A DNA stretch of 64,000 nt from Octopus vulgaris. Taxonomy: Eukaryota. Position 1 is the stretch's first letter. The number at the start of each line of letters is the position of its first letter. The stretch spans positions 84,568,001 through 84,632,000 of the forward strand of contig OX597822.1 of the NCBI GenBank assembly GCA_951406725.2. Direction: 5' to 3'. The notes beneath the pieces were generated by a model that saw only the letters and a list, made by a program, of their open reading frames with translations, searched no databases and was not told where the DNA came from. Below, piece by piece: positions 3,016-60,782 of the stretch. A program made the position numbers and the translations under genes.

Positions 3016-3534
3016 GTTTCCTTGGTTAGGTGCGCAGTAAATGTGGTGCGAAGTTTTACGTTCTGCTCGCCTCCGGCTTAACATACCGTGTCAACATATG
3101 ATATCAACATACAACTAAGATGAGATTCCAGCTTTTTATCCACTCAGCAAACAAGATTTATCACTGACTTGACATATACACACACATACGAATAAACATA
3201 CACACATGCAATCATTCACACACACACAAACGCATACATACATACATACATACATACATACATACATACATACATACATACATACATACATACATGCATA
3301 CATACATACATACATACATACATACATACACACGCATACATACATACACACACATATACGCACTTACAAACGTACATACACACACACGCATGCATGCACA
3401 CATACATACATATATTTTGTTGTGTCTAGGGAGAGTCATTAGGCCAATATTCGCACACGCACTGGTTCAACACATGAATTCCTAAAAAGAATCTTGCAAA
3501 CCAGATACCGAAACTTATGTACATATATATATAT

Positions 3535-5965: not shown

Positions 5966-6997
5966 AGCTTTAAATCCATTGTTCTTTCACCAAATGTGAG
6001 ACCTCCCACACCAGCTGCACTCATGCATCCCCAAAGCATAACACTTTCGCCGCCGTGTTTCACAGTAGGCACGGTGTATTTGTCGCTACTATCTTCACCT
6101 GGTCGTCGCCATACTCGTTTAATACCATCTCACCCAAACAAGTTGATTTTAGTCACGTCAGAAAAAAGAATTTTATTCCAAAACTCCTTCCCTTTACTCA
6201 CATAGGTTTCGACAAAAGAGGATGACGTGATTTATGTCTGGTAGTGAGGAGAAACTTCCTACGAGGAATGCGTCCATGAAGACCACACTGGTTCAAATTT
6301 CGGCGAACTGCTTGGGCGGATACACACTTTCCACCAACTGAAGACACTTCTTGGGTCAAAGATGAAGCGGTACGACGCTTGACGTCCATCACGCAACGTT
6401 GGACGTGGCGAATATCACGCGCAATTAAAACAGAAGGATGACCTGGAGGATGTTTATTGCTTAGCTGTTCAGCAGCTTTGTACTTCTGAATTACTTTGGC
6501 AACTGTGTTTACGCTAATATGTGTTCGTTTGCTAAACCATTCTTGTGCAAACTGAAAAGGATTTTCTTCAAATCTTCAGACAATTCTTTTCCTTTTGGTG
6601 CCATTTGAATCGCAATGAAGAAGATTTTCACCACGGTATACAAATCAGAATTCCTACAGATGCAACAACAATGACCGGTGCAAAAATACCAGGTGAAATA
6701 ATTCATTAGAATTGAAATTATCAGCAATATCCGAATCTAGCAAAAGGAAAAAGTGGATAAAATACTGAATATAGCAAATTTCCTTCAGGGTGTACATAAT
6801 TTTGTATCGTTTGAAAATTAATATTTCGTTCATATCTTTGAAAATATTTATTGTTTTGTGTTCCAAATTTGTATAATGTTTGCATGTATAATATATTTTA
6901 TTCAGTATAAATTTCGTTTGATTTTCTTTGATACTATCAGAGGAATGGCAATTTTACTGAAACTTTTTAGGGGTGTACATACTTCTCTGAGATACTG
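5966..6997 (-). mobile_element. Truncated, decayed Tc1-family DNA transposon
   Basis: Minus strand gives MAPKGKELSEDLKK..., VRRNLNQCGLHGRIPRRK and TKINLFG...PTVKHGGESVMLWGCM (Tc1 transposase motifs); terminus CAGT at 6997; internal repeat GGGTGTACATA at about 6788 and 6971; ends at (CA)n. Confidence 0.9.
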
Positions 6998-7023
6998 TGA
7001 GTGTGTGTGTGTATATATATATA

Positions 7024-7177
7024 TAAAAGTAATATGTGACAATTATTCGGTAGTCATGATAAAACTCGGAGTTTTATCATGACTACAGAATAATTGTCAC
7101 ATATTACTTTTAAAGATAAATTCCTCTATTTACATAATATCGAGGTCTCTTTCATTCTTTTGTTGTCTTACCATTTT

Positions 7178-8584: not shown

Positions 8585-10031
8585 AACTTAGAATAACTTA
8601 GAAAGGTCTTGGCCAGTATTGGCCCAGGCCATGTCTAACTTAATAGCACCACCTGGCGAAGTCTTTCAATTCAGGATTTGGGCACCGAGGCCCATTCGAG
8701 CAGAGAGTTATTGTTTGCGGAGACATATCCGGGTGTGGGTGGTTTGTCCGGGACTGTTTGAAGGAATTTGTCCAAAGACTTCTTGAAATTTGTGTGGTCA
8801 GTTTCTGTTTTGACGTGTCCTAGTGTAATGTTGAAGAGAGCGGGTCCAATTGAGGTGAAATAATTGTGCCGTATTGTCGTTATGTGATGCGATTTAGATT
8901 TTTGTTGTGGACAGATGGCACGTGGTCCAAGCCTTGGATGTATTTTGAAGGTGATGCCAACATCATTCGGACAGTGCTGATGGAATATTTTCCACATCAT
9001 ACAGATAATGTAGCGTTCATGGCGTCGTTGGAGTGAATACAGTTTCAGCTTCTCTAGTCTACCCCAGTAGTCAAGGTCTGACATGCCATCTATCTTTTTT
9101 GTGATTGACCTTTGGGGAACTTCAATTCTCATAATATTTTGTTTTGTGTATGGAGATCACAGTGGACAGCAGTATTCAAGGTGGGGTCGGGCAAAAGTGG
9201 AGAAGAGAAGGATAATAGTGTGGGAATCTCTCGACTGGAAGGTTCTGAGAATCCAGGAGCACATTCTGCAGGCCATGTCAACTTTGCTGCTTATATGTGT
9301 AGCCCAGCTTATGTTGTTGTCCACTGTTACTCCCAAGTCTCTGATGTTGTTGGACGTCATGAGAATTTCTCCAGAAGGAAGGGAGTATGGGAGTTTCAGA
9401 GGTCCTCCCTTCCAAAGTGGATCAGTTCGAAATTGTCTTCGTTTAGCAACATGTTGTTCTTTTCCGCCCATTGGACAACAGCCAACAGTCTGACTGAAGG
9501 CTTATTCGGTCATCCACGCCATTGATGACCTTCTGGAGCTTGGAATCATCAGCGAAGGTTCTGATGTTACTGTGTTTGATGGTGTCAGTAATATCATTTA
9601 TGTAGATGATGAAGAGAAGTGGGACCAACACAGTGCCTTGTGGGACACCACTGCTGACTTTGGCTGGGCTGGATTTGACTCCTTCGACTACAACATGTTG
9701 GGTTCTGTTAGACAGGAAGCACTTGATCCACTGCAGCAGCTTTCCAGTGACACCAATATTGGACAGCTTTCTCAAAAGGATCTTATGATCAACCCTGTCA
9801 AAGGCCTTGTTGAAATCAAGGTAGATGACATCAGTGTTGGAACCCTTTCCCAAGGCTCTCAAAATGTTATCAAAATGTTGCAGTAGCTGCGTCAGGCAAT
9901 CTCTTCCATTACGGAATCCATGCTGGTTGGAGTTCAGCATATTATGACTCTCAAGGAAGTGAGTCATACGCGATCTCAGCACTCTCTCAAATACCTTAAT
10001 GATATGAGAGGTGAGTGAGATTGGACAATTA
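8585..10031 (-). mobile_element. 5'-truncated CR1/L2-group LINE (RT and C-terminus), frameshifted
   Basis: ORFs 9443-9982 (QHGFR, YLDFNKAFDRV, SGVPQGTVL, FADDSKL), 9157-9471 (RDLGV, RPHLEYC) and 8671-9132 (LYSLQRR, FKKSLD); flanked by TA-rich microsatellites. Confidence 0.93.
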
Positions 10032-10051
10032 ATATGTATATATATATATTA

Positions 10052-12153: not shown

Positions 12154-12290
12154 ATATATATATATATATATAACCGAGATTCAATTGAATTAGTTACTTA
12201 AGTTGAAACACGAAGTCAGTCCAGTATTATCCGCACACCTCAAAGTAAGATGAATATAATCAAAATAAGCAACAGGATATCAAGTAGTGA

Positions 12291-12376
12291 TGCGGTACGA
12301 CCGTTTCAAGCGACTCCATTTAATTGAACAATGCAATCATTATATCAATTTAAATGCAATGTCATCTTCAGCTGCA
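12291..12376 (-). ncRNA. Hammerhead ribozyme motif, mirror copy
   Basis: Minus strand TGCAG-CTGAAGA-...-GAAAC-GGTC-GTA-CCGCA. Confidence 0.7.
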
Positions 12377-12835
12377 CAAATAAATAAATAAATAGAATTT
12401 TAGAAGTAAGACATATTAATATAATTTTTCTCAAATATTTTAAAAGAGTAAGAAGATGGAAGACATTCATGTTGTTGCTATTGTAGCTAAGAATAGACTA
12501 CACTTCCAAGAATTGCATGAAGTCTATTGGGGTCATAGTGTTGTAAGGGATTGTAATTCATTTCTAATTCATTTATCTCCTTCTCAACTACTAAATCTAA
12601 GACTAGAAGACTGCCTATTTTGAATAGAGGACAAGAGTGAGATAAATGAATTAGAAATGAATTACAATCCCTTACAACACTATGACCCCAATAGACTTCA
12701 TGCAATTCTTGGAAGTGTAGTCTATTCATAGCTACAATAGCGGCAACATGAATTTCTTTCATCTTCTTGCTCTGTTAAAATATTAGAGAAAAATTATATT
12801 AATGTGTCCTACTTGTTAAAAATTCTATTTATTTG

Positions 12836-12921
12836 TGCAGCTGAAGATGGCACTGCATTTAGATTGATGTAATGATTGCATTGTCCAATTCAATGGAGCC
12901 GCTTGAAACGATCGTACTGCA
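12836..12921 (+). ncRNA. Minimal type I hammerhead ribozyme motif
   Basis: TGCAG-CTGAAGA-[long stem II]-GAAAC-GATC-GTA-CTGCA; stem I pairs and stem III is palindromic. Confidence 0.8.
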
Positions 12922-12962
12922 TCACTACTTGATATCATGTTGCTTATTTTGATATATATATA

Positions 12963-13089
12963 AATACGTCACTAAAGTGAACTAGGGCTCTAACCAGCAC
13001 CAGAATTGCTAGAAATAAGAGCAAAAATATCTCAATAGCCAGCAATATTGGTGCTGATTAGTGCCCTTGTTTACTTTAGAGACGCATAT
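12963..13089. mobile_element. Small hairpin element with about 47-bp imperfect inverted arms
   Basis: CGTCACTAAAGTGAACTAGGGCTCTAACCAGCACCAGAATTGCT vs AGCAATATTGGTGCTGATTAGTGCCCTTGTTTACTTTAGAGACG. Confidence 0.7.
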
Positions 13090-19722: not shown

Positions 19723-19816
<94 letters not shown>

Positions 19817-19817
<1 letters not shown>

Positions 19818-20206
19818 TTACTAAGTCTCTCTAAAGGAGATTACGGCAGCGTTATTATTAATAGTTATCACCATACTAATATGGCAGTCTATAAATATAA
19901 GACTAAAGCTGTCGCTGATTAGCTCCAAGAGGCCATCGCCTCTAGCTAGCTATATGACACACGAACCTGCGTCCATTACAACCTTCGAACAAGTCTGACT
20001 AGCAAGGTGAAGTGGCTGACCTCCCTTGTTCGAAGGTTGTAATGGACGCAGGTTCGTGTGTCATATAGCTAGCTAGAGGCGATGGCCTCTTGGAAGTTAA
20101 TCAGCGACAGCTTTAGTCTTATATTTATAGACTGCCATATTAGTATGGCGATAACTATTAATATCCAGTAACGCTGCTGTAATCTCCTTTAGAGAGACTT
20201 AGTAAT
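19817..20206. mobile_element. Fold-back element in (TA)n: about 177-bp arms, 31-bp spacer
   Basis: 19817-19993 is the reverse complement of 20025-20206 with few mismatches. Confidence 0.88.
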
Positions 20207-20214
20207 ATATATAT

Positions 20215-20582: not shown

Positions 20583-20636
20583 TGTGCGTATATATATATA
20601 TGTATATGTGTGTGTGTGTGTATGTATTTATGTAAT

Positions 20637-21096
20637 GACTAAAGAAAATGGCCTAATATTGGGGCATATAAGCCCTCGACGGAATAAAAGTAGTGTTTCC
20701 GTATACATGGGATTCGAACCCACAACCCTTTGTTTTTCGTGACAGGTGTGTTACTATTACACTAACGTACCCCTGGTTTCTATCCATCAGATTTAAGAAC
20801 TATAATTAGTTCATAGTGTTGCTTTTTGTAAACAGACATCATGTACGTTTTTCTGCGATGGTTTTTGATAAGCAGTGTCGAGTTTTACAATTCTGTAAAT
20901 GATAATAATGATATTTTATAAGCTTAAAGCGTATAAGCGATCACCAACACTATGGAAGAAGCCGGGGGTACGTTGGCATAATGGTAACACATCGCGAAAA
21001 CAAAGAGCTGTGAATTCGAGTCCCATGCGTACGGAAACCTTACTTTTCTCCGTCGAGGGCTTATATGCCCCAATATTAGACTGCTTTCTTTAAGTC
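20637..21096. mobile_element. Divergent inverted pair of tRNA-headed short elements (about 20637-20790 minus, 20950-21096 plus)
   Basis: Arms are imperfect reverse complements; plus arm has A box TGGCATAATGG and B-box-like AATTCGAGTCCC. Confidence 0.75.
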
Positions 21097-21757
21097 CTTA
21101 CACGGTGATCGCTTTAGTTATTACACGAGTCAATCAGATAGGTTTGTCAAACTCCTTTCGCCACTATTCGTGACCTCATCAATGACGCGCCTTCTTTACT
21201 CCAAGTCTGTTTCGAGGTTTTCAGACAATGAATCTGAACAGCTAACATACTCTTTACAAATACGATCTGTAAGTGAAACAGTAAAAATATGTAAGACTTT
21301 TCTAAAGTTTAACATACAAGGGGGGGGGGACCCCTAAAGAAACCCGAATTTTGCAATATTATTTTATTCACTTAGTTTTACTTGTTTATACTTTTATCGT
21401 ATAGCATTTTTCGTTTTTTTTTTTATATCGAAATTACAACAGAGGGGGCTGCTTTGTCTCTTTGTCAGAAACCAGCTCCCTCTTATACGAAGAATTCAAA
21501 TAATTAAAAAAAAAGTAAGAAAGATATATATATATATATACATACGTGGTAGACCACCCAGGGGGGATATAGTTATGCATATATCGCAATCATCGGCCAT
21601 GGCGAAGTAATCGGATGATTACGTTCTTTTACATGTGTTACACTAATTCTAAAGAAGTCTGTTATAAATAAATATAGTAGTTCTGTGAAACAGCCAGGTA
21701 CGTACACACACGTACGAACATACACATGGGCATAGAGACATAAGCATACGCACATAT

Positions 21758-23252: not shown

Positions 23253-24841
<1,589 letters not shown>

Positions 24842-25050
24842 AACTGGATCTCCTCCTATAAAGAGTTGCGGATGAACCTACCTCACGGCAGGAAATGCAT
24901 AGGAGGGCAGCAGCAACGAACTTCCTCATTCACCAAATGCCACATAACAGCGGAGGTTTCAAGTACTGAATGTGTAGCAAAGCTAACGGTGGTGCTCCAG
25001 CATGACCGTAGCTCTCGAGTTGAAACTAGTTAACGAATGTTATATATATG

Positions 25051-31916: not shown

Positions 31917-31962
<46 letters not shown>

Positions 31963-32303
31963 CACACACGTATACATACTTATGTATACATGAGAGAAAA
32001 TGGATGAATATATGAAGAAATGTGAAGAAGCACACACACACAAACACACAACCACACACACATGTATGTGTGTGTGTGTATATATATATATATGTATATA
32101 TTTATGTATACATATATTTGTATGTATGTATATGTATTTATATATACACACATACATTCACATACATCATCGTCATCATCATTTAACGTCCGTTTTCTAT
32201 GCTAGCATTGGTTGGACGGTTCGCCCGGGGTCTGGGAAGTCAGGAGGCTGCACCAGGCTCCAGTCTGATCTGGTAGTGTTTCTACATATATATATATATA
32301 TAT

Positions 32304-34092
32304 ATATTGTTATATTTCGGAATGGTCATATTGCCAGTTTAGCCAATAAAAACACACGCACTATATATTTGGTGTTATTTTGCTTCAGTGATATTTATTT
32401 TTTACATTAATCTTAATCTTATTTCGGCCAAAGTTCTTTCGTCACACTCCTGTGACCGCATCAGTGGTCCTTTGTTTTCTTCTCACTTACTTGTGTCTCT
32501 CCTTACTAACCGTCAGCCATTTTGTATTTCTATTGTATGTCTTCATTTGCGCATGCTTATATCTCTATGTGCATCTATGTTTATTTAGTGTGTGGGGGGG
32601 GATGTCTGTAATATTTGTATCTTCTGGTTATATACATTCTTGTAATTTGTATTTTGTTTTTGTTGTTGTTGCTTTTGTTCTAATTTTGTTCATGTGTTTA
32701 CATCCACCCATTATTATCATTACATATGCTTGTATGTATGTATAACAACAATATTAGTAATAATAATAATAAATCTAATCGAGAAAAAAAAAAAAAAAAG
32801 AATATACATATACATATATATATATATATACATACACATACATATACATATATATATATACATATATACACACATATATACACATATACATATACATATA
32901 TATACACATATACATACACATAGATATTCATTTCTATTTCTTTAATTACCTGTGTATTTATTATGTTTGCAGGATCCACTATTGTCATATGTTGTGGTGT
33001 GCGCTATTGCTCCATTCTAGTTTTCTATTCAGGCTAGGTTTATTTTCTATTATATGTGTAGCTTCTGTAATTTGTCTAATTGTTGCATCTGTTCTATGTG
33101 TGGACAATATCTTAATCTCTATGTTATTGATTGATCCCCCGTGTTCTTGTTCGGCGTGTTGGTACAGAATCGATTCTGTACCAACACGCCGAACAAGAAC
33201 ACGGGGGATCAATCAATAACATAGAGATTAAGATATTGTCCACACATAGAACAGATGCAACAATTAGACAAATTACAGAAGCTACACATATAATAGAAAA
33301 TAAACCTAGCCTGAATAGAAAACTAGAATGGAGCAATAGCGCACACCACAACATATGACAATAGTGGATCCTGCAAACATAATAAATACACAGGTAATTA
33401 AAGAAATAGAAATGAATATCTATGTGTATGTATATGTGTATATATATGTATATGTATATGTGTATATATGTGTGTATATATGTATATATATATATGTATA
33501 TGTATGTGTATGTATATATATATATATATTATATGTATATTCTTTTTTTTTTTTTTTTTTCTCGATTAGATTTATTATTATTATTACTAATATTGTTGTT
33601 ATACATACATACAAGCATATGTAATGATAATAATGGGTGGATGTAAACACATGAACAAAATTAGAACAAAAGCAACAACAACAAAAACAAAATACAAATT
33701 ACAAGAATGTATATAACCAGAAGATACAAATATTACAGACATCCCCCCCACACACTAAATAAACATAGACGCACATAGAGATATAAGCATGCGCAAATGA
33801 AGACATACAATAGAAATACAAAATGGCTGACGGTTAGTAAGGAGAGACACAAGTAAGTGAGAAGAAAACAAAGGACCACTGATGCGGTCACAGGAGTGTG
33901 ACGAAAGAACTTTGGCCGAAATAAGATTAAGATTAATGTAAAAAATAAATATCACTGAAGCAAAATAACACCAAATATATAGTGCGTGTGTTTTTATTGG
34001 CTAAACTGGCAATATGACCATTCCGAAATATAACAATATCTGTTTCAACACACGACTTCACATAAAAAATCTTGCACAACAAATATTTAAAC

Positions 34093-34093
<1 letters not shown>
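32304..34093. mobile_element. 1.74-kb PLE palindrome (868-bp arms, no spacer, centre 33171/33172) with about 54-bp right tail, in (TA)n
   Basis: Mirror ORFs 32985-33212 and 33131-33358 encode [11 protein letters not shown]...IKIL...[17 protein letters not shown] (GIY-YIG C-terminus of PLE type); HHR-like motif in each arm. Confidence 0.92.
33873..33917 (+). ncRNA. Variant minimal HHR-like motif (mirror at 32426-32470, minus)
   Basis: GGACCA-CTGATGC-G-GTCACA-GGAG-TGTGAC-GAAAG-AA-CTT-TGGCC; last core A replaced by C. Confidence 0.6.
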
Positions 34094-34171
<78 letters not shown>

Positions 34172-34589
34172 TATGTACACACATGCATACTTATGTATAC
34201 ATGAGGGAAAATGGATGAATATATGAAGAAATGTAAAGAAGTACACACACACACACATATATATATATACACACACGTATACATACTTATGTATACATGA
34301 GAGAAAATGGATGAATATATGAAGAAATGTGAAGAAGCACACACACACAAACACACAACCACACACACATGTATGTGTGTGTGTGTATATATATATATAT
34401 GTATATATTTATGTATACATATATTTGTATGTATGTATATGTATTTATATATACACACATACATTCACATACATCATCATCATCATCATTTAACGTCCGT
34501 TTTCTATGCTAGCATTGGTTGGACGGTTCGCCCGGGGTCTGGGAAGTCAGGAGGCTGCACCAGGCTCCAGTCTGATCTGGTAGTGTTTC

Positions 34590-34659
<70 letters not shown>

Positions 34660-35342
34660 TATATATACATATATGTACACACATGCATACTTATGTATAC
34701 ATGAGGGAAAATGGATGAATATATGAAGAAATGTAAAGAAGTACACACACACACACACGCGCATATGTGCTTATGTATGTGTGTTTGCGTATGTATGTGT
34801 CTGTGTGTGTGTAATTTTTCAGATTAAAAACCATACCACATACATGTGACATCAATAATGTTTGCATTGTTAGAACTGCTTCTAACTCAAAATTGAATTT
34901 TGTTTTACTTGTGCGGCGCTGTTTCACATCAGCAAATATATTTTACCATATCTATATATACACCCCAGAGCAGCGATTGTAATTCGTTTCGACCTGACTC
35001 GGTTACACGCTGCCGGTGAGCTGAAATAACAGCGCAATCTCGATATCCATCGATCTGGTTCACCTAAGGAGCGATTCCTTTCGCCTGGTCATGAGACACG
35101 TTTAATGTTTTTTAACACGCGGCCTCTTAAAAGATTTTTCCCTCGGACGAAATTCTGCAACCAATAAGCGTATAAACAAAATACATTAAGTATGTGACAT
35201 CGGTAAATGTTTGCAGTATTAGAGCTACTTCTAATTCAAAATTATGTATGTATGTATGTATGTATGTATGTATGTATGTATGTATGTATGTATGTATGTA
35301 TGTATGTATGTATGTATGTATGTATGTATGCATGTATGCATG

Positions 35343-40204: not shown

Positions 40205-40276
<72 letters not shown>

Positions 40277-40278
<2 letters not shown>

Positions 40279-40940
40279 GAGAAAGAAGCAACAAGAATGG
40301 ATTAGTTTTTAGTACAATTGTTTCATACAAAGACAGGCTTTATTAAAAGTTGCAAAAATTGCAGCAGATAAAAGTGTCCCGTACTCATCAGCTAAAATAC
40401 ATATGAGTTCTCCAAACATCTTAGTGGGTGAGGCTATACTCATGAAGTATTGGAGATAATTTCATTAAAAGCAGATTTAGGTTGTAAACAGATTTCCGAA
40501 GTTCCTTAATGATGATGCACAGTCTTATCACAGGCTTTTAAAAAAAAGCTTAGCTTTTTTTTAAAAACCTGTGATAAGACTGTGCATCATCATTAAGGAA
40601 CTTCGGAAATCTGTTTACAACCTAAATCTGCTTTTAATGAAATTATCTCCAATACTTCATGAGTATAGCCTCACCCACTAAGATGTTTGGAGAACTCATA
40701 TGTATTTTAGCTGATGAGTACGGGACACTTTTATCTGCTGCAATTTTTGCAACTTTTAATAAAGCCTGTCTTTGTATGAAACAATTGTACTAAAAACTAA
40801 TCCATTCTTGTTGCTTCTTTCTCGTGTATAATCACCCCACATTACTGTATGGTTAACACCATATAGTTTTCTGGTGCATCTAAGTTAAGTACCACATTCA
40901 AGTAAATTCATTGGAATTGACTTGAATCTTAATTGCTTTT

Positions 40941-43809: not shown

Positions 43810-44166
43810 ATAAGGATAATACCGATATTATCAAGTGGCCAGCATAGGAATAAATACCATACAAAGGTAATAATTTTTTACAACTAAAAACTAAAGGTGT
43901 CTGAGAGACACCACCATGCCGAAATAGCAGTCAAATCCCTGACTCTAAAAACCACCTTATTTAACTGATGAAGGCAGAGCTTATTTGAAGCAAAGCTAGA
44001 AATCCAGGATCTTGAATTATTCAGTTATATCTTTTTGCTTGTCTATTTTGTCCCTCTGTCTTATCTCATGGTGCGATATGAACATTTAAGGTGGCTTTTA
44101 GAGTCAGGGATTTGACTGCTATTTCGGCATGGTAGTGTCTCTCAGACTCCCTTATTTTAAGTTGTA
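43810..44166. mobile_element. Inverted-repeat element (about 80-bp arms 43879-43959 / 44087-44166) with left extension, in (TA)n
   Basis: Arms are reverse complements; HHR motif in the spacer. Confidence 0.8.
43959..44017 (+). ncRNA. Minimal type I HHR motif
   Basis: ATTTAA-CTGATGA-...AGCTT..AAGCT-A-GAAAT-CCAGG-ATC-TTGAAT; stem II junction imperfect. Confidence 0.6.
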
Positions 44167-44174
44167 TATATATA

Positions 44175-44400
44175 TCTTTTATGTTTTACGTATTCAAGTC
44201 ATTGACTGGACTGCGACCATGCTGGGTTAACACCTTGAAAGGCATTGTTGAACAAATTGGTCTGGTACTTATTCTACCCACCTTTTCCTTTCATCCTTTC
44301 GGTGTCCTTAAAATAGGTACGAGTTGAGTACTGGGGGCCGATGTAATCGACTAGCCCCATCCACTAAAGTTTCAGACCTCTGCTTTTAATAGAAAGGATT
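44175..44400. mobile_element. Adjacent fragments of SINE B tail (minus) and SINE A (plus)
   Basis: GACTGCGACCATGCTGG; CCTTTCATCCTTTCGG...GATGTAATCGACT. Confidence 0.65.
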
Positions 44401-47134: not shown

Positions 47135-47165
<31 letters not shown>

Positions 47166-47561
47166 ATTTGGTTCAAAAGCAAATAGCAAGGCCATGTAGG
47201 GGGACATGGAGTTAAGTACAGGGTGGTGTTCATGTAAAGAGTTCAGGCCACTTGAGGTCAAGGGAGGCTTTGAACAAAGCGGTCGTCGGCATCTTCACCA
47301 TCTCGTCTGGCAGCTTGTTCCACGGATCCGCAACCCGGACGGAGAACAAGCTGCCAGACGAGATGGTGAAGATGCCGACGACCGCTTTGTTCAAAGCCTC
47401 CCTTGACCTCAAGTGGCCTGAACTCTTTACATGAACACCACCCTGTACTTAACTCCATGTCCCCCTACATGGCCTTGCTATTTGCTTTTGAGCCAAATTA
47501 ACTAACTAACTAACTAACTAACTAAATATCCGTCAAACGTAAATAATGTAAATAATGAAAC
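46968..47561 (+). mobile_element. Truncated HHR-bearing element (family of 50294-50717) with an inverted tail copy at 46968-47027
   Basis: ACAC-CTGATGA-A-GGCTG-loop-CAGCC-GTAAC-GTT-GTGT at 47064-47107; interrupted by the LINE palindrome. Confidence 0.85.
47131..47529. mobile_element. Palindromic CR1-type LINE 3' end with (TAAC)n tails at both ends
   Basis: About 190-bp arms, 23-nt loop; minus strand encodes FSVRVADPWNKLPDEMVKMPTTALFKASLD. Confidence 0.9.
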
Positions 47562-48872: not shown

Positions 48873-50293
48873 ATGTGTGTGTGCGTGCGTGTGTGTGTGT
48901 GTGTGCGCGCGCGCGCGTCTGTCACTCTGCAAGTGTCTGCAGGATTTTAGCGGAGGAGCGGAAGCAGGGCTAGTGTTGCAACAACAACAGCAGCAGCAGC
49001 AGCAACAACAACAACAACAAAAGTATGTTTGATGACATTAGCGTCGGCTTTTTCAAAGAGAAGACCAGATAATATATGGAGGTGCGCACATGAAAATTTT
49101 AGCAACTGAATCATAAGAGCCAAACGCATTTAAGTTGAAGTTGATGGTTTGAAGCATAGCAAGCTGTATAAACGTCCTTGATTCTAAGCTTAACCTAACT
49201 GTAGAATCATGCAATCTCTTCAGGAAACCACGACCCACTATTTGTACAAGCCCGTGGAATCAAATTCCCACCCACCGTCATCAAATATATCAGTAAGAGA
49301 GTTAACGTTTTACTCGCAAACGCTTAACAGACATGGCCGCCGCGTTTTACTACAATGTGGCTGTACCAGGCAACATTAGAATGAGAAAAAAATATATGTT
49401 GTCACTTGTAAACAACTAAAAGCGTTCCAAATATACCAGAGAAAGGTATTTAATATGGTTTATCACTTATGTAAATTATGTAAAGCTCAATGCAGCAGGG
49501 GACTTCTTTCGTATAAACAAACATTTTCTTTATAAACCATTGGTTGTTCAAAATAAACTACACAAACCGTTCAAAGGTGAACTTCATCTGCAAGGAAAAT
49601 GTCGTGAGAAATATAAAAATATATCTTGATGATGTCACCACAGTGAAACACATCGGCCACCTGGTCACCCAGTGAAAACATCTCGAATATTCATTAAACA
49701 ATCGCCTGCACTAAGATATTCTGTCACCGTTACTTAGTAAAAGCACAGAAAATCGGAAATGCATTCGTAGAGACTGAGGTGTTGTTACTGAAACACTTTA
49801 ACGACTCAATACTTGTTAACGTTTAGAAATGGGTTTTAAAAAATTGAAAATTTCACATCTCACCCGTGGTTCTGTAGAAAAACGATAAAAATTTTGGTGT
49901 GTTATCATATGTCTAAGTTTTTTTTCTTATGAATTTTAAGAAATAGCATTAAGGCGTGTAATACAAAACAGAATTCTATGACCATATGTCAAGTCTATGA
50001 CGTCAGGTTTATGAAAACTTTATGACGTCAGATTTACGGTGTTAAATCTTTTTTAACCTGCTTATATTTCTATCAGGACAGTGATAATTACAATAGCTCA
50101 GATAAACTGGATGCATGAATATTTAGGAAAAATTTGTGATTCTTGTTGTATCTTGGGAAGGTCAGTAAGCCAATAACAATAACACACGCACTAGTTCAAG
50201 ATTACTTCTTTATTGTTAGTCAATTGGTTAAATATCTAAACAACAAACAAATCAAGCATTTGGTGAATGTACTAGTTAAACAATCAATTGGTT

Positions 50294-50717
<424 letters not shown>

Positions 50718-53767: not shown

Positions 53768-54107
53768 GTCACCTAAATGTGGCTAATTCTTAAGGGTTGA
53801 TGCTACTGTAACTTGTAGCCCCAGGAAGACATCTACTCCAGCTGACTATTGACATACTATCTGTGCCCTATCAGATATTTGCAAAGGGACGTCATCGTTC
53901 CCATTTCCAACCTGACGTGATACACACGGACCCGAGTTTCTGGATATTGACCCGTCACCAGAGTATGAAAACCACCGGTTGGCGATGGGAAGTGATTCCC
54001 AATGTAAATATATATACTTTTTTCAGTGACGTCAGGCTGGAGATGGGAACGATGACTTCCCTTTGCCAATACTGATAGGGCACAGATAGTGTGTCAATAG
54101 CCAGCTG
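53768..54107. mobile_element. Inverted-repeat element (80-bp arms 53839-53918 / 54029-54107) with left extension
   Basis: Arms are reverse complements; extension resembles the arms of the 40972 and 19817 elements. Confidence 0.8.
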
Positions 54108-55865: not shown

Positions 55866-56445
55866 TACGACGTCTGATCAATAGATATCCAGACTGTTGC
55901 CATTGTAACGAAGCTAAAGCATGCATAGTGAAGCCGCTAGGCGCAGAAGATTGACTTTGAATTCCGTTGTGTATGTGCACTAAGTTTTAACGTTCTAACT
56001 CACTTCCGCTGTTTGCAGCAGTGCTTTGAATGAAGGTGTGTCGCCTGTGATCGTCGCATTGACCATTACAGAGAAAGTTGTCATGGTAATACCTGCCAAG
56101 TTTCTGCCAAAACTGCTTTCAGCTGACCAAAAAGACATCCGGGTTTCAGTTGCGCAAGATCTCCTTGATTGTGTCGAGAACGATGGAAACTTTTTGAAAA
56201 CTTAGCGTAGGCCTCTGAGCAGGTATCGCCAAGCTTTTGGCAAAATTTGATGCAGATTCTCTGCTCAACTTTCTCTGTCACGGTCAATGCAACGATCACA
56301 CGCTACACGCCTTCCTTCCAAGCACTGCTGTAAATAGCGGCAGTGAGCTAGAACGCTAAAAGTTAGTGCGCATGCACAGCATAGTTTCAAGGTCAATCTG
56401 TGCCAAGCGGCTTCACTCTCCGTGCTTTATTGACCAGACCGAATA
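55866..56445. mobile_element. Mariner-derived MITE with about 200-bp inverted ends
   Basis: 55866-56080 resembles the reverse complement of 56266-56445; ORF 56081-56299 TEKVEQRICIKFCQKLGDTCSEAY. Confidence 0.85.
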
Positions 56446-59662: not shown

Positions 59663-59739
59663 AGATAGACATATGTATGTGTATATATATAAATATGTAT
59701 CTATGTATGTTTGTATATATATATATATATATATGTTAA

Positions 59740-60778
59740 TAAAATATATGCATATATATAAACATATATGTACGTACCTACCTCTACATGTACATATACA
59801 CGCATATATGTGTACAGGACACCAAAAAGACGTGGAACACATAGAGAGACGAAAAACATAGACACAAAGCAAGGAACAAGACAGGCAAAAAAAAAAAGAG
59901 AGAGATACAGGACAATAAGCACAACGAAAAATCCCCTTCTTCAGTCGCTAAAGTTTCATCTACTAAACGTTTCGAAGGATAAAAGCGAGACGTATACTTC
60001 GAATGAAAAAATTCCTTCCTGCGAAAAGCAAATCAATTAAAATTCTGAGATCTTTTCGCAGAGGGGTGAAAAAAAGCAAGACGGTAACGACAGTACAAAC
60101 ATATAAACAGTAAAAAATATATATATAAAAACAGTGGAAAAATAAATATACAACAGTGAGAGACAGGACAAGGAGAACAAAATAAGAAGGGCTGTTAACG
60201 CCAGACGAAAAAAGTATTGCAAACGCTGGATTATAGTGGACGACGAGAGAGGAAGATGTCGACCAGAGGCCTTAGAAGGCGGGCGAGAAAGGACAGGATA
60301 GCAGTTACGACGGAAGTATGGTCGCAGATGGACGACGGGAATGGGGGAGGAGGAGCAAGAGGAAGAGAGAGAAGAAGGGGAATGGTGCGAGGAGACCATG
60401 AAGAACAGTGAGGGGGAGAGAGAGAGGAAGAGACAAGTTAAGTGAGGGAAAAAAAGACGAAAAAGGGAATGGGAGAGAAAGAAAGAAAGATGCAGAGTCG
60501 CGTGAGAGTTAATATCAAGGCGAACTTGATAAACAGAACAATCTTACTTAATAGGGTGCGTGCGTTTAGTCGTATAATATGTTAATAAAATATATGCATA
60601 TATATAAACATATATGTACGTACCTACCTCTACATGTACATATACACGCATATATGTGTACAGGACACCAAAAAGACGTGGAACACATAGAGAGACGAAA
60701 AACATAGACACAAAGCAAGGAACAAGACAGGCAAAAAAAAAAAGAGAGAGATACAGGACAATAAGCACAACGAAAAAT

Positions 60779-60782
<4 letters not shown>
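59740..60782 (-). mobile_element. About 1-kb unit bounded by about 200-bp direct repeats (59735-59934 / 58-nt-shifted equivalent at 60580-60780), pseudo-LTR-like
   Basis: Near-identical ATGTTAATAAAATATATGC...GCACAACGAAAAATCC blocks; diverged relative at 62905-63070. Confidence 0.7.

What the first reader, a model, noticed from the sequence alone, without database searches (positions are those of the whole stretch)
32304..34093. Spacerless 1.74-kb palindrome of a PLE 3' end
Seen: 868-bp arms meet at AGAATCGATTCT with no loop. Each carries a GIY-YIG C-terminus, a 3' region with internal microsatellites and an HHR-like motif; the right arm has a 54-bp tail. The arms differ by at least one substitution (about 32573/33770) and in homopolymer or microsatellite details. 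Established: long perfect palindromes are usually unstable and yield dsRNA if transcribed. Inference: a recent insertion and the best lead to the autonomous partner.
Basis: partly seen in the sequence, partly recalled or inferred. Interest (0 to 1): 0.7.

Follow-up and report, generated by a model that had tools for sequence, protein, structure and literature searches.

The report
Head-to-head truncated Penelope-like retrotransposon insertion
Two near-identical tail ends of a Penelope-like jumping gene sit head-to-head with no gap inside a TA repeat, likely left by one recent insertion; this layout is already described for the class, so it is an ordinary though unusually clean example.

Summary
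The palindrome is real: arms 32304-33171 and 33172-34039 (868 bp each, 865 of 870 columns identical, no spacer), plus a 54-bp tail on the right arm only, between two (TA)n runs. Each arm is the 3' end of a Penelope-like element (PLE): the last ~62 codons of a GIY-YIG endonuclease (46 hits, best E 9e-14; relatives have RT then a C-terminal EN, with a Nematis-type linker), a microsatellite-containing 3' region, a minimal hammerhead-like motif with a non-canonical core, and the ORF start running into the tail. Head-to-head inverted 5'-truncated copies with a one-sided tail in (TA)n are published PLE architecture. It likely formed in one integration event, both target strands primed and the two cDNAs joined at a short self-complementary site; fold-back is the main rival. 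Corrections: only ~62 of the '75 aa' are element-derived; no autonomous partner lies in the window; transcription is untested. It is not unique: this 64-kb window holds 10 local inverted duplications, including two more hammerhead-bearing ones and a LINE-like one with a target-site duplication. A ~500-bp flanking duplicate preserves the empty site. Low novelty; the window-wide habit is the interesting part.

The parts
32304..33171 (-). Left arm: 5'-truncated PLE 3' end, no tail
33172..34039 (+). Right arm: 5'-truncated PLE 3' end
33170..33173 (.). Axis (between 33171 and 33172); TCGA is the part likely native to the element, because the Ser codon 33170-33172 straddles the axis
   Evidence: Ser at this column in 18 of 19 aligned relatives; the preceding Glu in 0 of 19
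33170..33358 (+). Last 62 codons and stop of the PLE ORF: C-terminal part of the GIY-YIG endonuclease; GIY and YIG motifs are cut off
32985..33173 (-). Mirror copy of the endonuclease C-terminus
33420..33560 (+). Internal (TA/TG) microsatellite and T18 run in the 3' region (mirror at about 32785-32923); holds two of the three indels
33873..33917 (+). Minimal type I hammerhead-like motif; core CUGAUGC (A9 replaced by C, one extra G), 6-bp stem II, 2-bp stem III, CUU triplet; activity untested
32426..32470 (-). Mirror copy of the hammerhead-like motif
34014..34093 (+). Predicted start of the PLE ORF: ATG at 34014, about 9 codons inside the arm, open through the tail
   Evidence: score 45 against the N-terminus of P0128, above all 3280 background windows (max 39)
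34040..34093 (+). One-sided 54-bp tail
32286..32307 (.). Left (TA)n target remnant, 22 nt, sharing 4 nt with the arm end
34094..34165 (.). Right (TA)n target remnant, 72 nt
31936..32303 (+). Upstream flank, duplicated at 34243-34610 (366 of 368 identical)
34243..34757 (+). Tandem duplicate of the host site (upstream flank, (TA)n 34593-34655, downstream flank) without the insertion: the empty site
   Evidence: (366 of 368 and 161 of 164 identical)

Best explanation
This is a non-coding remnant of a Penelope-like retrotransposon in which two 5'-truncated 3' ends lie head-to-head in a (TA)n microsatellite, likely made in one recent integration event. Shown: element identity, boundaries, one-sided tail, (TA)n target, empty-site duplicate. 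Inferred steps: (1) the GIY-YIG/RT protein of an intact Nematis-like element elsewhere cut both strands of the (TA)n run; (2) each strand primed reverse transcription, one from the outer start site (arm with the 54-bp tail) and one from the inner start site (arm without it); (3) both cDNAs ran into the endonuclease C-terminus and were joined by annealing at the self-complementary TCGA (possibly longer) with flap trimming, leaving no spacer; (4) since then one CpG-type transition and three small indels (some may be sequencing errors) accumulated. It cannot encode a protein; any effect would be as a cruciform-prone or, if transcribed, hairpin-RNA-forming sequence. Confidence by step: PLE identity about 0.95, one-event origin about 0.85, two-strand priming rather than fold-back about 0.5.
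For: Peptide hits 46 proteins at E<=1e-3, best 8.8e-14; 7 of 20 scanned hits have Pfam GIY-YIG at E<=0.01; 82 long relatives, 56 of the 64 with both motifs having RT YxDD before a C-terminal YIG-type motif; the peptide maps to residues 1026-1082 of 1116 in P0047. Linker spacing is 7 aa in 39 of 66 parsable relatives, as in three Nematis rows of Craig et al. Fig. S2 and unlike the long Neptune/Naiad linker. A full minimal HHR descriptor matches 4 sites in the window (this pair and the 40391/40711 pair) against 0.07 and 0 per 50-kb shuffle for the variant and canonical cores. The tail encodes an ORF N-terminus, as in A. vaga Pen2a. Both arms are truncated at the same base and no target DNA lies at the axis. 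In vitro a PLE protein cuts and extends both strands and has two RT start sites that bound the tail (PMC11167929). Symmetry ends at element limits, not in the flanks.
Against: No intact copy was available, so the native sequence upstream of the axis is unknown; the Ser match has about a 1-in-16 chance by itself and rests on 19 relatives I picked from 46. No Pfam family matches the window peptide itself and two word-index searches with it found nothing. Relatives are at most 60% identical, so the clade is inferred through them; 8 of 64 long relatives did not show the RT-then-C-terminal-EN layout under my regex and 18 of 82 lacked one motif. The HHR core is non-canonical, the descriptor was relaxed after seeing it, Rfam finds nothing and the fold z-score is weak (-1.5). 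The tail is longer (54) than the 30-40 bp quoted. The tail-less end shares ATAT with the target, which fold-back would also explain. Arkhipova et al. 2013 favour self-priming for such junctions.
Confidence: 0.8

Rival explanations
1. Same element and one event, but by fold-back: a single cDNA (or template) folded on itself at a native micro-palindrome, copied itself back to just short of the tail, and annealed to the other side of the cut through ATAT, (TA)n being its own reverse complement.
For: Arkhipova et al. 2013 read palindromes at inverted junctions as self-priming. Left junction shares 4 nt with (TA)n. Neighbouring palindromes have 23-59-nt spacers that continue one arm's reading frame, as a loop would. 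Near-identity of arms is automatic.
Against: A hairpin needs a loop, so with zero spacer the native sequence must be symmetric over about 10-12 nt; only TCGA has support and the Glu implied by longer symmetry occurs in 0 of 19 relatives. It does not by itself explain why the short arm ends at the tail boundary, which two RT start sites do.
Confidence: 0.3
2. A single ordinary insertion was later turned into a palindrome by break repair (fold-back priming at a broken end or template switching), perhaps together with the adjacent 500-bp duplication.
For: A near-perfect tandem duplication abuts the right end; inverted duplications of unlike sequence types occur through the window.
Against: The duplicated segment ends exactly at the tail boundary and includes no flank; the one-sided tail is a published PLE integration signature.
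Confidence: 0.08
3. Amplification, read or assembly chimera (fold-back read, collapsed haplotypes).
For: Zero spacer; 3 of 4 arm differences are homopolymer or microsatellite indels typical of long-read error, one breaking dinucleotide phase; the filled-plus-empty tandem could be two alleles stitched together.
Against: Symmetry stops at element boundaries on both sides; the tail is asymmetric; the substitution is CpG-type; diverged inverted pairs of the same build (90% at 12254-12959, with its own one-sided tail) cannot be read chimeras.
Confidence: 0.07
4. Two independent insertions of the same young family into one (TA)n site in opposite orientation.
For: Double insertions at one site are documented for other TEs (bioRxiv 158386); (TA)n is a preferred, symmetric target.
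Against: Independent copies should differ in 5' truncation and leave target DNA at the junction (same paper); here truncation is identical and no target lies at the axis.
Confidence: 0.03

Closest known systems
Canonical C-terminal-EN PLE insertions with an inverted 5'-truncated copy and one-sided tail (Craig et al. 2021, PMC8557442 Fig. 2 legend and text; Arkhipova et al. 2013, PMC3846280, e.g. Pen2a_Av)
   Same: Head-to-head inverted 3' ends, palindromic junction, tail on one end only, ORF start in the repeat continuing into the tail, HHR motif in the repeat, AT-rich/(TA)n target.
   Different: No full ORF and no direct pLTR between the arms; equal arms with zero spacer, 868 bp each; 54-bp tail against 30-40 bp; long 3' region with internal microsatellites; variant HHR core; no short TSD can be read in (TA)n.
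Nematis clade of PLEs
   Same: Nearest relatives have RT followed by a C-terminal GIY-YIG with the short Zn-finger-like linker (7-aa spacing in 39 of 66; Nematis rows).
   Different: The window fragment lacks the linker and RT, and no tree with named references was built, so clade placement is indirect.
Poseidon PAc of Anolis (Frangieh et al. 2024, PMC11167929)
   Same: Two RT start sites bounding a tail inside the ORF start, AT-rich cleavage of both strands, HHR just upstream of the ORF start: the mechanistic model used here.
   Different: Different clade (no Zn-finger linker in Penelope/Poseidon); that work did not reconstitute inverted products; here the ATG lies about 95 nt downstream of the HHR-like motif.
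Naiad PLEs (N-terminal EN, (TA)n targets, present in cephalopods)
   Same: (TA)n target, inverted truncated copies, tail.
   Different: Here the EN is at the 3' end of the ORF and an HHR-like motif is present; not a Naiad.

Membership tests
EN+ Penelope-like elements (C-terminal EN) | GIY-YIG endonuclease at the C-terminus of a single ORF | tested here: met
   Peptide ends in a stop and aligns to the C-terminal EN region of relatives; 89 bits against a profile built without it
EN+ Penelope-like elements (C-terminal EN) | Telomerase-related RT upstream of EN in the same ORF | tested here: inconclusive
   Absent from this truncated copy; YxDD precedes the EN in 56 of 64 long relatives with both motifs; RT phylogeny not run
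EN+ Penelope-like elements (C-terminal EN) | CCHH motif with two Cys between GIY and YIG | tested here: inconclusive
   Cys region truncated away; two downstream His (H7, H12) are present and >=90% conserved
EN+ Penelope-like elements (C-terminal EN) | pLTR-type direct or inverted terminal repeats | tested here: met
   Inverted arms
EN+ Penelope-like elements (C-terminal EN) | One-sided tail that continues the ORF start | tested here: met
   54 bp (longer than the usual 30-40); ATG 34014 frame matches a relative's N-terminus above background
EN+ Penelope-like elements (C-terminal EN) | Hammerhead ribozyme motif in the terminal repeat | tested here: inconclusive
   Full minimal topology present and rare in shuffles but core A9 is C; Rfam null is uninformative since it also misses the canonical motif at 40711; cleavage untested
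EN+ Penelope-like elements (C-terminal EN) | Target-site duplication or simple-repeat target | tested here: met
   (TA)n on both sides and in the empty duplicate; TSD length unreadable
Nematis clade | Short CX2-5CxxC linker before the EN | tested here: inconclusive
   Not in the fragment; 7-aa spacing in 39 of 66 relatives, 18-23 aa in 8
Nematis clade | Monophyly with Nematis in an RT tree | not tested
   No RT in the window and no named reference sequences among the stored proteins
Naiad/Chlamys | N-terminal EN | tested here: not met
   EN fragment ends the ORF
Foldback/MITE-type DNA transposon | Terminal inverted repeats around non-coding DNA, no retroelement 3' features | tested here: not met
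   Arms are retroelement 3' ends with an asymmetric tail

The most novel reading that the evidence does not exclude
This genome routinely makes and keeps head-to-head palindromic insertions, and not only of PLEs: a LINE-like 3' end with (TAAC)n tails pointing outward on both arms sits inside a PLE-type repeat with a single ~5-bp target-site duplication (47136-47528), which would fit two-strand priming by PLE machinery acting in trans. The 10 inverted duplications in 64 kb form a series in which spacerless pairs are young and long-spacer pairs old (Spearman 0.87), a readable life history of palindrome birth and centre erosion, and potentially a major genome-wide source of long hairpin RNA.
Probability: 0.25. 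Interest if true: 0.62.

Novelty: new member of a known kind. Interest (0 to 1): 0.27.

Why it matters
On its own it is a clean, young example of a published PLE insertion layout and a probe for an apparently uncatalogued Nematis-like family (nearest proteins found are at most 60% identical). It has one practical merit: with zero spacer, an asymmetric tail and an empty-site copy beside it, one intact family member would discriminate two-strand priming from fold-back, a question the PLE papers read here leave open. The wider pattern (10 inverted duplications in 64 kb, including a non-PLE one) would matter more if it holds genome-wide, because long near-perfect inverted repeats are reported to be largely absent from the human genome and unstable when introduced into cells (PMC12887540, passages).

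Tried and rejected
Word-index protein searches with the 61-aa peptide: nothing at longer or near lengths. Pfam on the peptide: only a chance Dad1 hit, E 0.089; Pfam on 6 long relatives: 0 of 6 matched in this Pfam copy. ESM Atlas: nearest clusters unnamed eukaryotic proteins (0.95), nearest named GIY-YIG at 0.89 on 15% of members, a lead only. Rfam: 0 hits window-wide and locally, control also missed. Folding the 294-nt 3' region: no better than shuffles (z +1.3). Host exons: 0 of 131 ORF segments hit Pfam (drawn from the 148 longest of 183 listed, leaving out TE frames already scanned, their opposite strands and mirror copies). Pfam on 8 frames from the other palindromes: 0 of 8. Bacterial promoter/terminator scan and ARAGORN: not informative. 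Inner-arm homogenisation: clear in 1 of 8 testable palindromes (12254, P 0.001 for first difference), borderline in 19805 (0.05), not in this one (0.12). Source organisms of the nearest short hits could not be looked up. Prokaryotic, phage and plasmid collections were not searched as irrelevant; viral and metagenome contigs were closed and stayed unchecked; no eukaryotic genome or read collection was available, so intact copies, copy number, reads and expression are unchecked. Rejected: Naiad (EN position), foldback DNA transposon, two independent insertions, a functional 75-aa gene.

Full report
Observation. The window is AT-rich, microsatellite-dense animal-type DNA (about 22% masked by TRF; no N). 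It resembles cephalopod genomes from memory only; the host was not tested. The differences are one substitution (32573/33770), a 1-nt indel in the internal microsatellite, T16 vs T18 and C8 vs C7. The substitution is CG vs TG on the element strand, the usual methyl-CpG mutation (established knowledge). A 54-bp tail (34040-34093) follows the right arm only; (TA)n runs of 22 and 72 nt bound the whole, the left one sharing 4 nt with the arm end.

What the arms are. The frame 33173-33355 found nothing in Pfam or two word-index searches, but an exhaustive HMMER search gave 46 proteins at E<=1e-3, best 8.8e-14 at 58% identity. Seven of 20 scanned hits carry Pfam GIY-YIG at E<=0.01; one (P0007) is an unrelated repeat protein and was dropped from the alignment. 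A profile of 20 sequences retrieved 82 proteins of 798-2261 aa; of the 64 with both motifs, 56 have an RT YxDD upstream of a C-terminal YIG-type motif, and the window peptide maps to residues 1026-1082 of 1116 in the best one. These proteins hit the window only at the two arms, so no autonomous partner is in the window. The CxxC-to-C linker is 7 aa in 39 of 66 parsable relatives, matching three Nematis rows and not the long Neptune/Naiad linkers in Craig et al. Fig. S2; clade placement is therefore Nematis-like but indirect.

The 3' region. A complete minimal type I hammerhead topology lies at 33873-33917 and its mirror. The descriptor matches 4 sites in the window, this pair and a canonical pair at 40391/40711, against 0.07 (variant core) and 0 (canonical core) sites per 50-kb shuffle in 30 shuffles; a local test gave 2 of 2000 shuffles. 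The descriptor was relaxed after seeing the motif, the core has C at position 9 plus an extra G, and the fold is only weakly better than shuffles, so activity is open. Rfam finds nothing but also misses the canonical motif. An ATG at 34014 opens a frame that runs through the tail; its translation scores 45 against the N-terminus of P0128, above all 3280 background windows (max 39), while the other 81 N-termini score 32 or less. So the tail is likely the ORF start, as for Pen2a in Adineta vaga.

The site. The upstream flank 31936-32303 recurs at 34243-34610 (366 of 368) and the downstream flank 34094-34257 at 34594-34757 (161 of 164). The simplest reading is a ~500-bp tandem duplicate of flank-(TA)n-flank, with the insertion in copy 1 and copy 2 preserving the empty site. 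It could be a real duplication, an unequal exchange between filled and empty alleles, or two haplotypes stitched together; reads are needed.

Age. One substitution in 864 aligned bases gives K 0.0012 (95% range 0.00003-0.0064). With the calibration quoted for octopus (JC 0.09 = 25 My, PMC13282606), which may not apply, that is roughly 0.16 My (0.004-0.9; my arithmetic). Arm-to-arm conversion could make it look younger: the 12254-12959 pair has no difference in its inner 88 columns (P 0.001), though this was clear in only 1 of 8 testable pairs.

Mechanism. Both arms are cut at the same base with no target DNA between them, so one event is likely. A purified PLE protein cuts AT-rich DNA on both strands, extends both, and starts reverse transcription at two sites bounding the tail (PMC11167929). 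I therefore favour two-strand priming: tailed arm from the outer start, tail-less arm from the inner start, cDNAs joined at a self-complementary spot. The Ser codon 33170-33172 straddles the axis and is conserved in 18 of 19 relatives, while the preceding Glu is seen in 0 of 19, so TCGA is probably native and longer symmetry is unsupported. That weighs modestly against a hairpin, which needs a loop, but fold-back (favoured as self-priming in PMC3846280) remains at about 0.3. An artefact is unlikely because symmetry stops at element boundaries, the tail is asymmetric and older pairs of the same build exist nearby.

Comparison with what is known. Craig et al. [quoted passage not shown] 2013 describe abundant head-to-head inverted structures with palindromes at the junction. 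The finding is an instance of that. Its particulars (equal arms, zero spacer, 54-bp tail, variant HHR, no RT) are variations of degree.

Context. The window has 10 close inverted duplications. Two others carry hammerhead motifs with 3' ends outward: 40272-40830 (1-nt spacer, 277 of 279; canonical motif) and 12254-12959 (59-nt spacer, 297 of 329, motif read by eye, one-sided tail to (TA)n). One, 47136-47528 (183 of 185, 23-nt spacer continuing the reading frame, (TAAC)n tails outward), looks like a CR1/L2-type LINE end (label recalled from its motif; no Pfam hit) and, against an uninterrupted paralogue at 50270-50440, has a ~5-bp target duplication. Spacer length tracks arm divergence (Spearman 0.87, P 0.001, n 10; 0.81, P 0.014 after dropping the SINE-like and mariner-like pairs). 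This is post hoc, one window, and long-spacer pairs may be independent insertions. It does show that such structures persist here, which tempers the instability argument (general instability: PMC12887540 passages). Transcription is untested; 0 of 131 ORF segments matched a host Pfam domain.

Literature seen. PMC8557442: passages, supplement search and one part. PMC11167929: parts 1-2 of 4. PMC3846280: abstract, passages, one section. Passages only: bioRxiv 10.64898/2026.07.22.740005, PMC13282606, PMC12887540, bioRxiv 158386. The original PLE-hammerhead paper was not read; the minimal HHR layout is recalled. Searches for octopus PLE palindromes and fold-back head-to-head retro-insertions returned 0 papers; some searches gave listings, mostly not read. 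The library lacks most subscription papers and unseen supplements may hold this family, so absence from print is not established.

Verdict. Real, correctly described, correctly identified as PLE 3' ends; a new member of a known kind. Interest 0.27. The window-wide palindrome habit extending to a non-PLE element is the boldest reading left open (probability 0.25, interest 0.62).

Noticed in passing
window 40272-40830: Second young near-spacerless palindrome (1-nt spacer, 277 of 279) with a canonical minimal hammerhead at 40711/40391 and (TA)n on the left; probably another PLE family.
   Followed up: partly
window 12170-12965: Older inverted pair (297 of 329, 59-nt spacer) with a hammerhead-like motif and an ~80-nt one-sided tail ending in (TA)n; inner 88 columns identical, suggesting homogenisation near the axis.
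   Followed up: partly
window 47136-47528: LINE-like 3' end (CR1/L2-type label recalled) duplicated head-to-head, 23-nt in-frame spacer, (TAAC)n tails outward, ~5-bp target duplication, inserted in a repeat with a hammerhead-like motif whose uninterrupted paralogue is at 50270-50440.
   Followed up: partly
window 7015-7121, 19805-20214, 20631-21102, 43858-44183, 53839-54107, 55915-56429: Six more close inverted duplications (79-94% arm identity); 20631 looks SINE-like and 55915 mariner-like (recalled); across all 10, spacer length rises with arm divergence.
   Followed up: partly
window 31936-32303 and 34243-34757: Near-perfect ~500-bp tandem duplicate of the insertion site, giving an empty-site copy; could be real or two haplotypes.
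   Followed up: yes
window 3461-3521: Short remnant between microsatellites that resembles the tail (E 9e-05; same frame with an in-frame stop): a related, older PLE end.
   Followed up: partly
window 59726-59934 and 60573-60780: 208 of 209 identical direct repeats around ~640 bp, the first ending at a hammerhead-like stretch on the minus strand (by eye); possibly a non-autonomous PLE with direct pLTRs.
   Followed up: no
window 8671-10048, 23806-24855, 6198-6575 (all minus strand): Broken TE coding remnants: a LINE RT (PF00078, E 1e-23), a non-LTR element with zf-RVT (E 6e-06) and a Tc1-like transposase (PF01498, E 2e-11).
   Followed up: no
window 33837 and 33853: Two GTAAG donor-like sites just upstream of the hammerhead-like motif; a 5'-UTR intron as in Penelope is possible but untested.
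   Followed up: no
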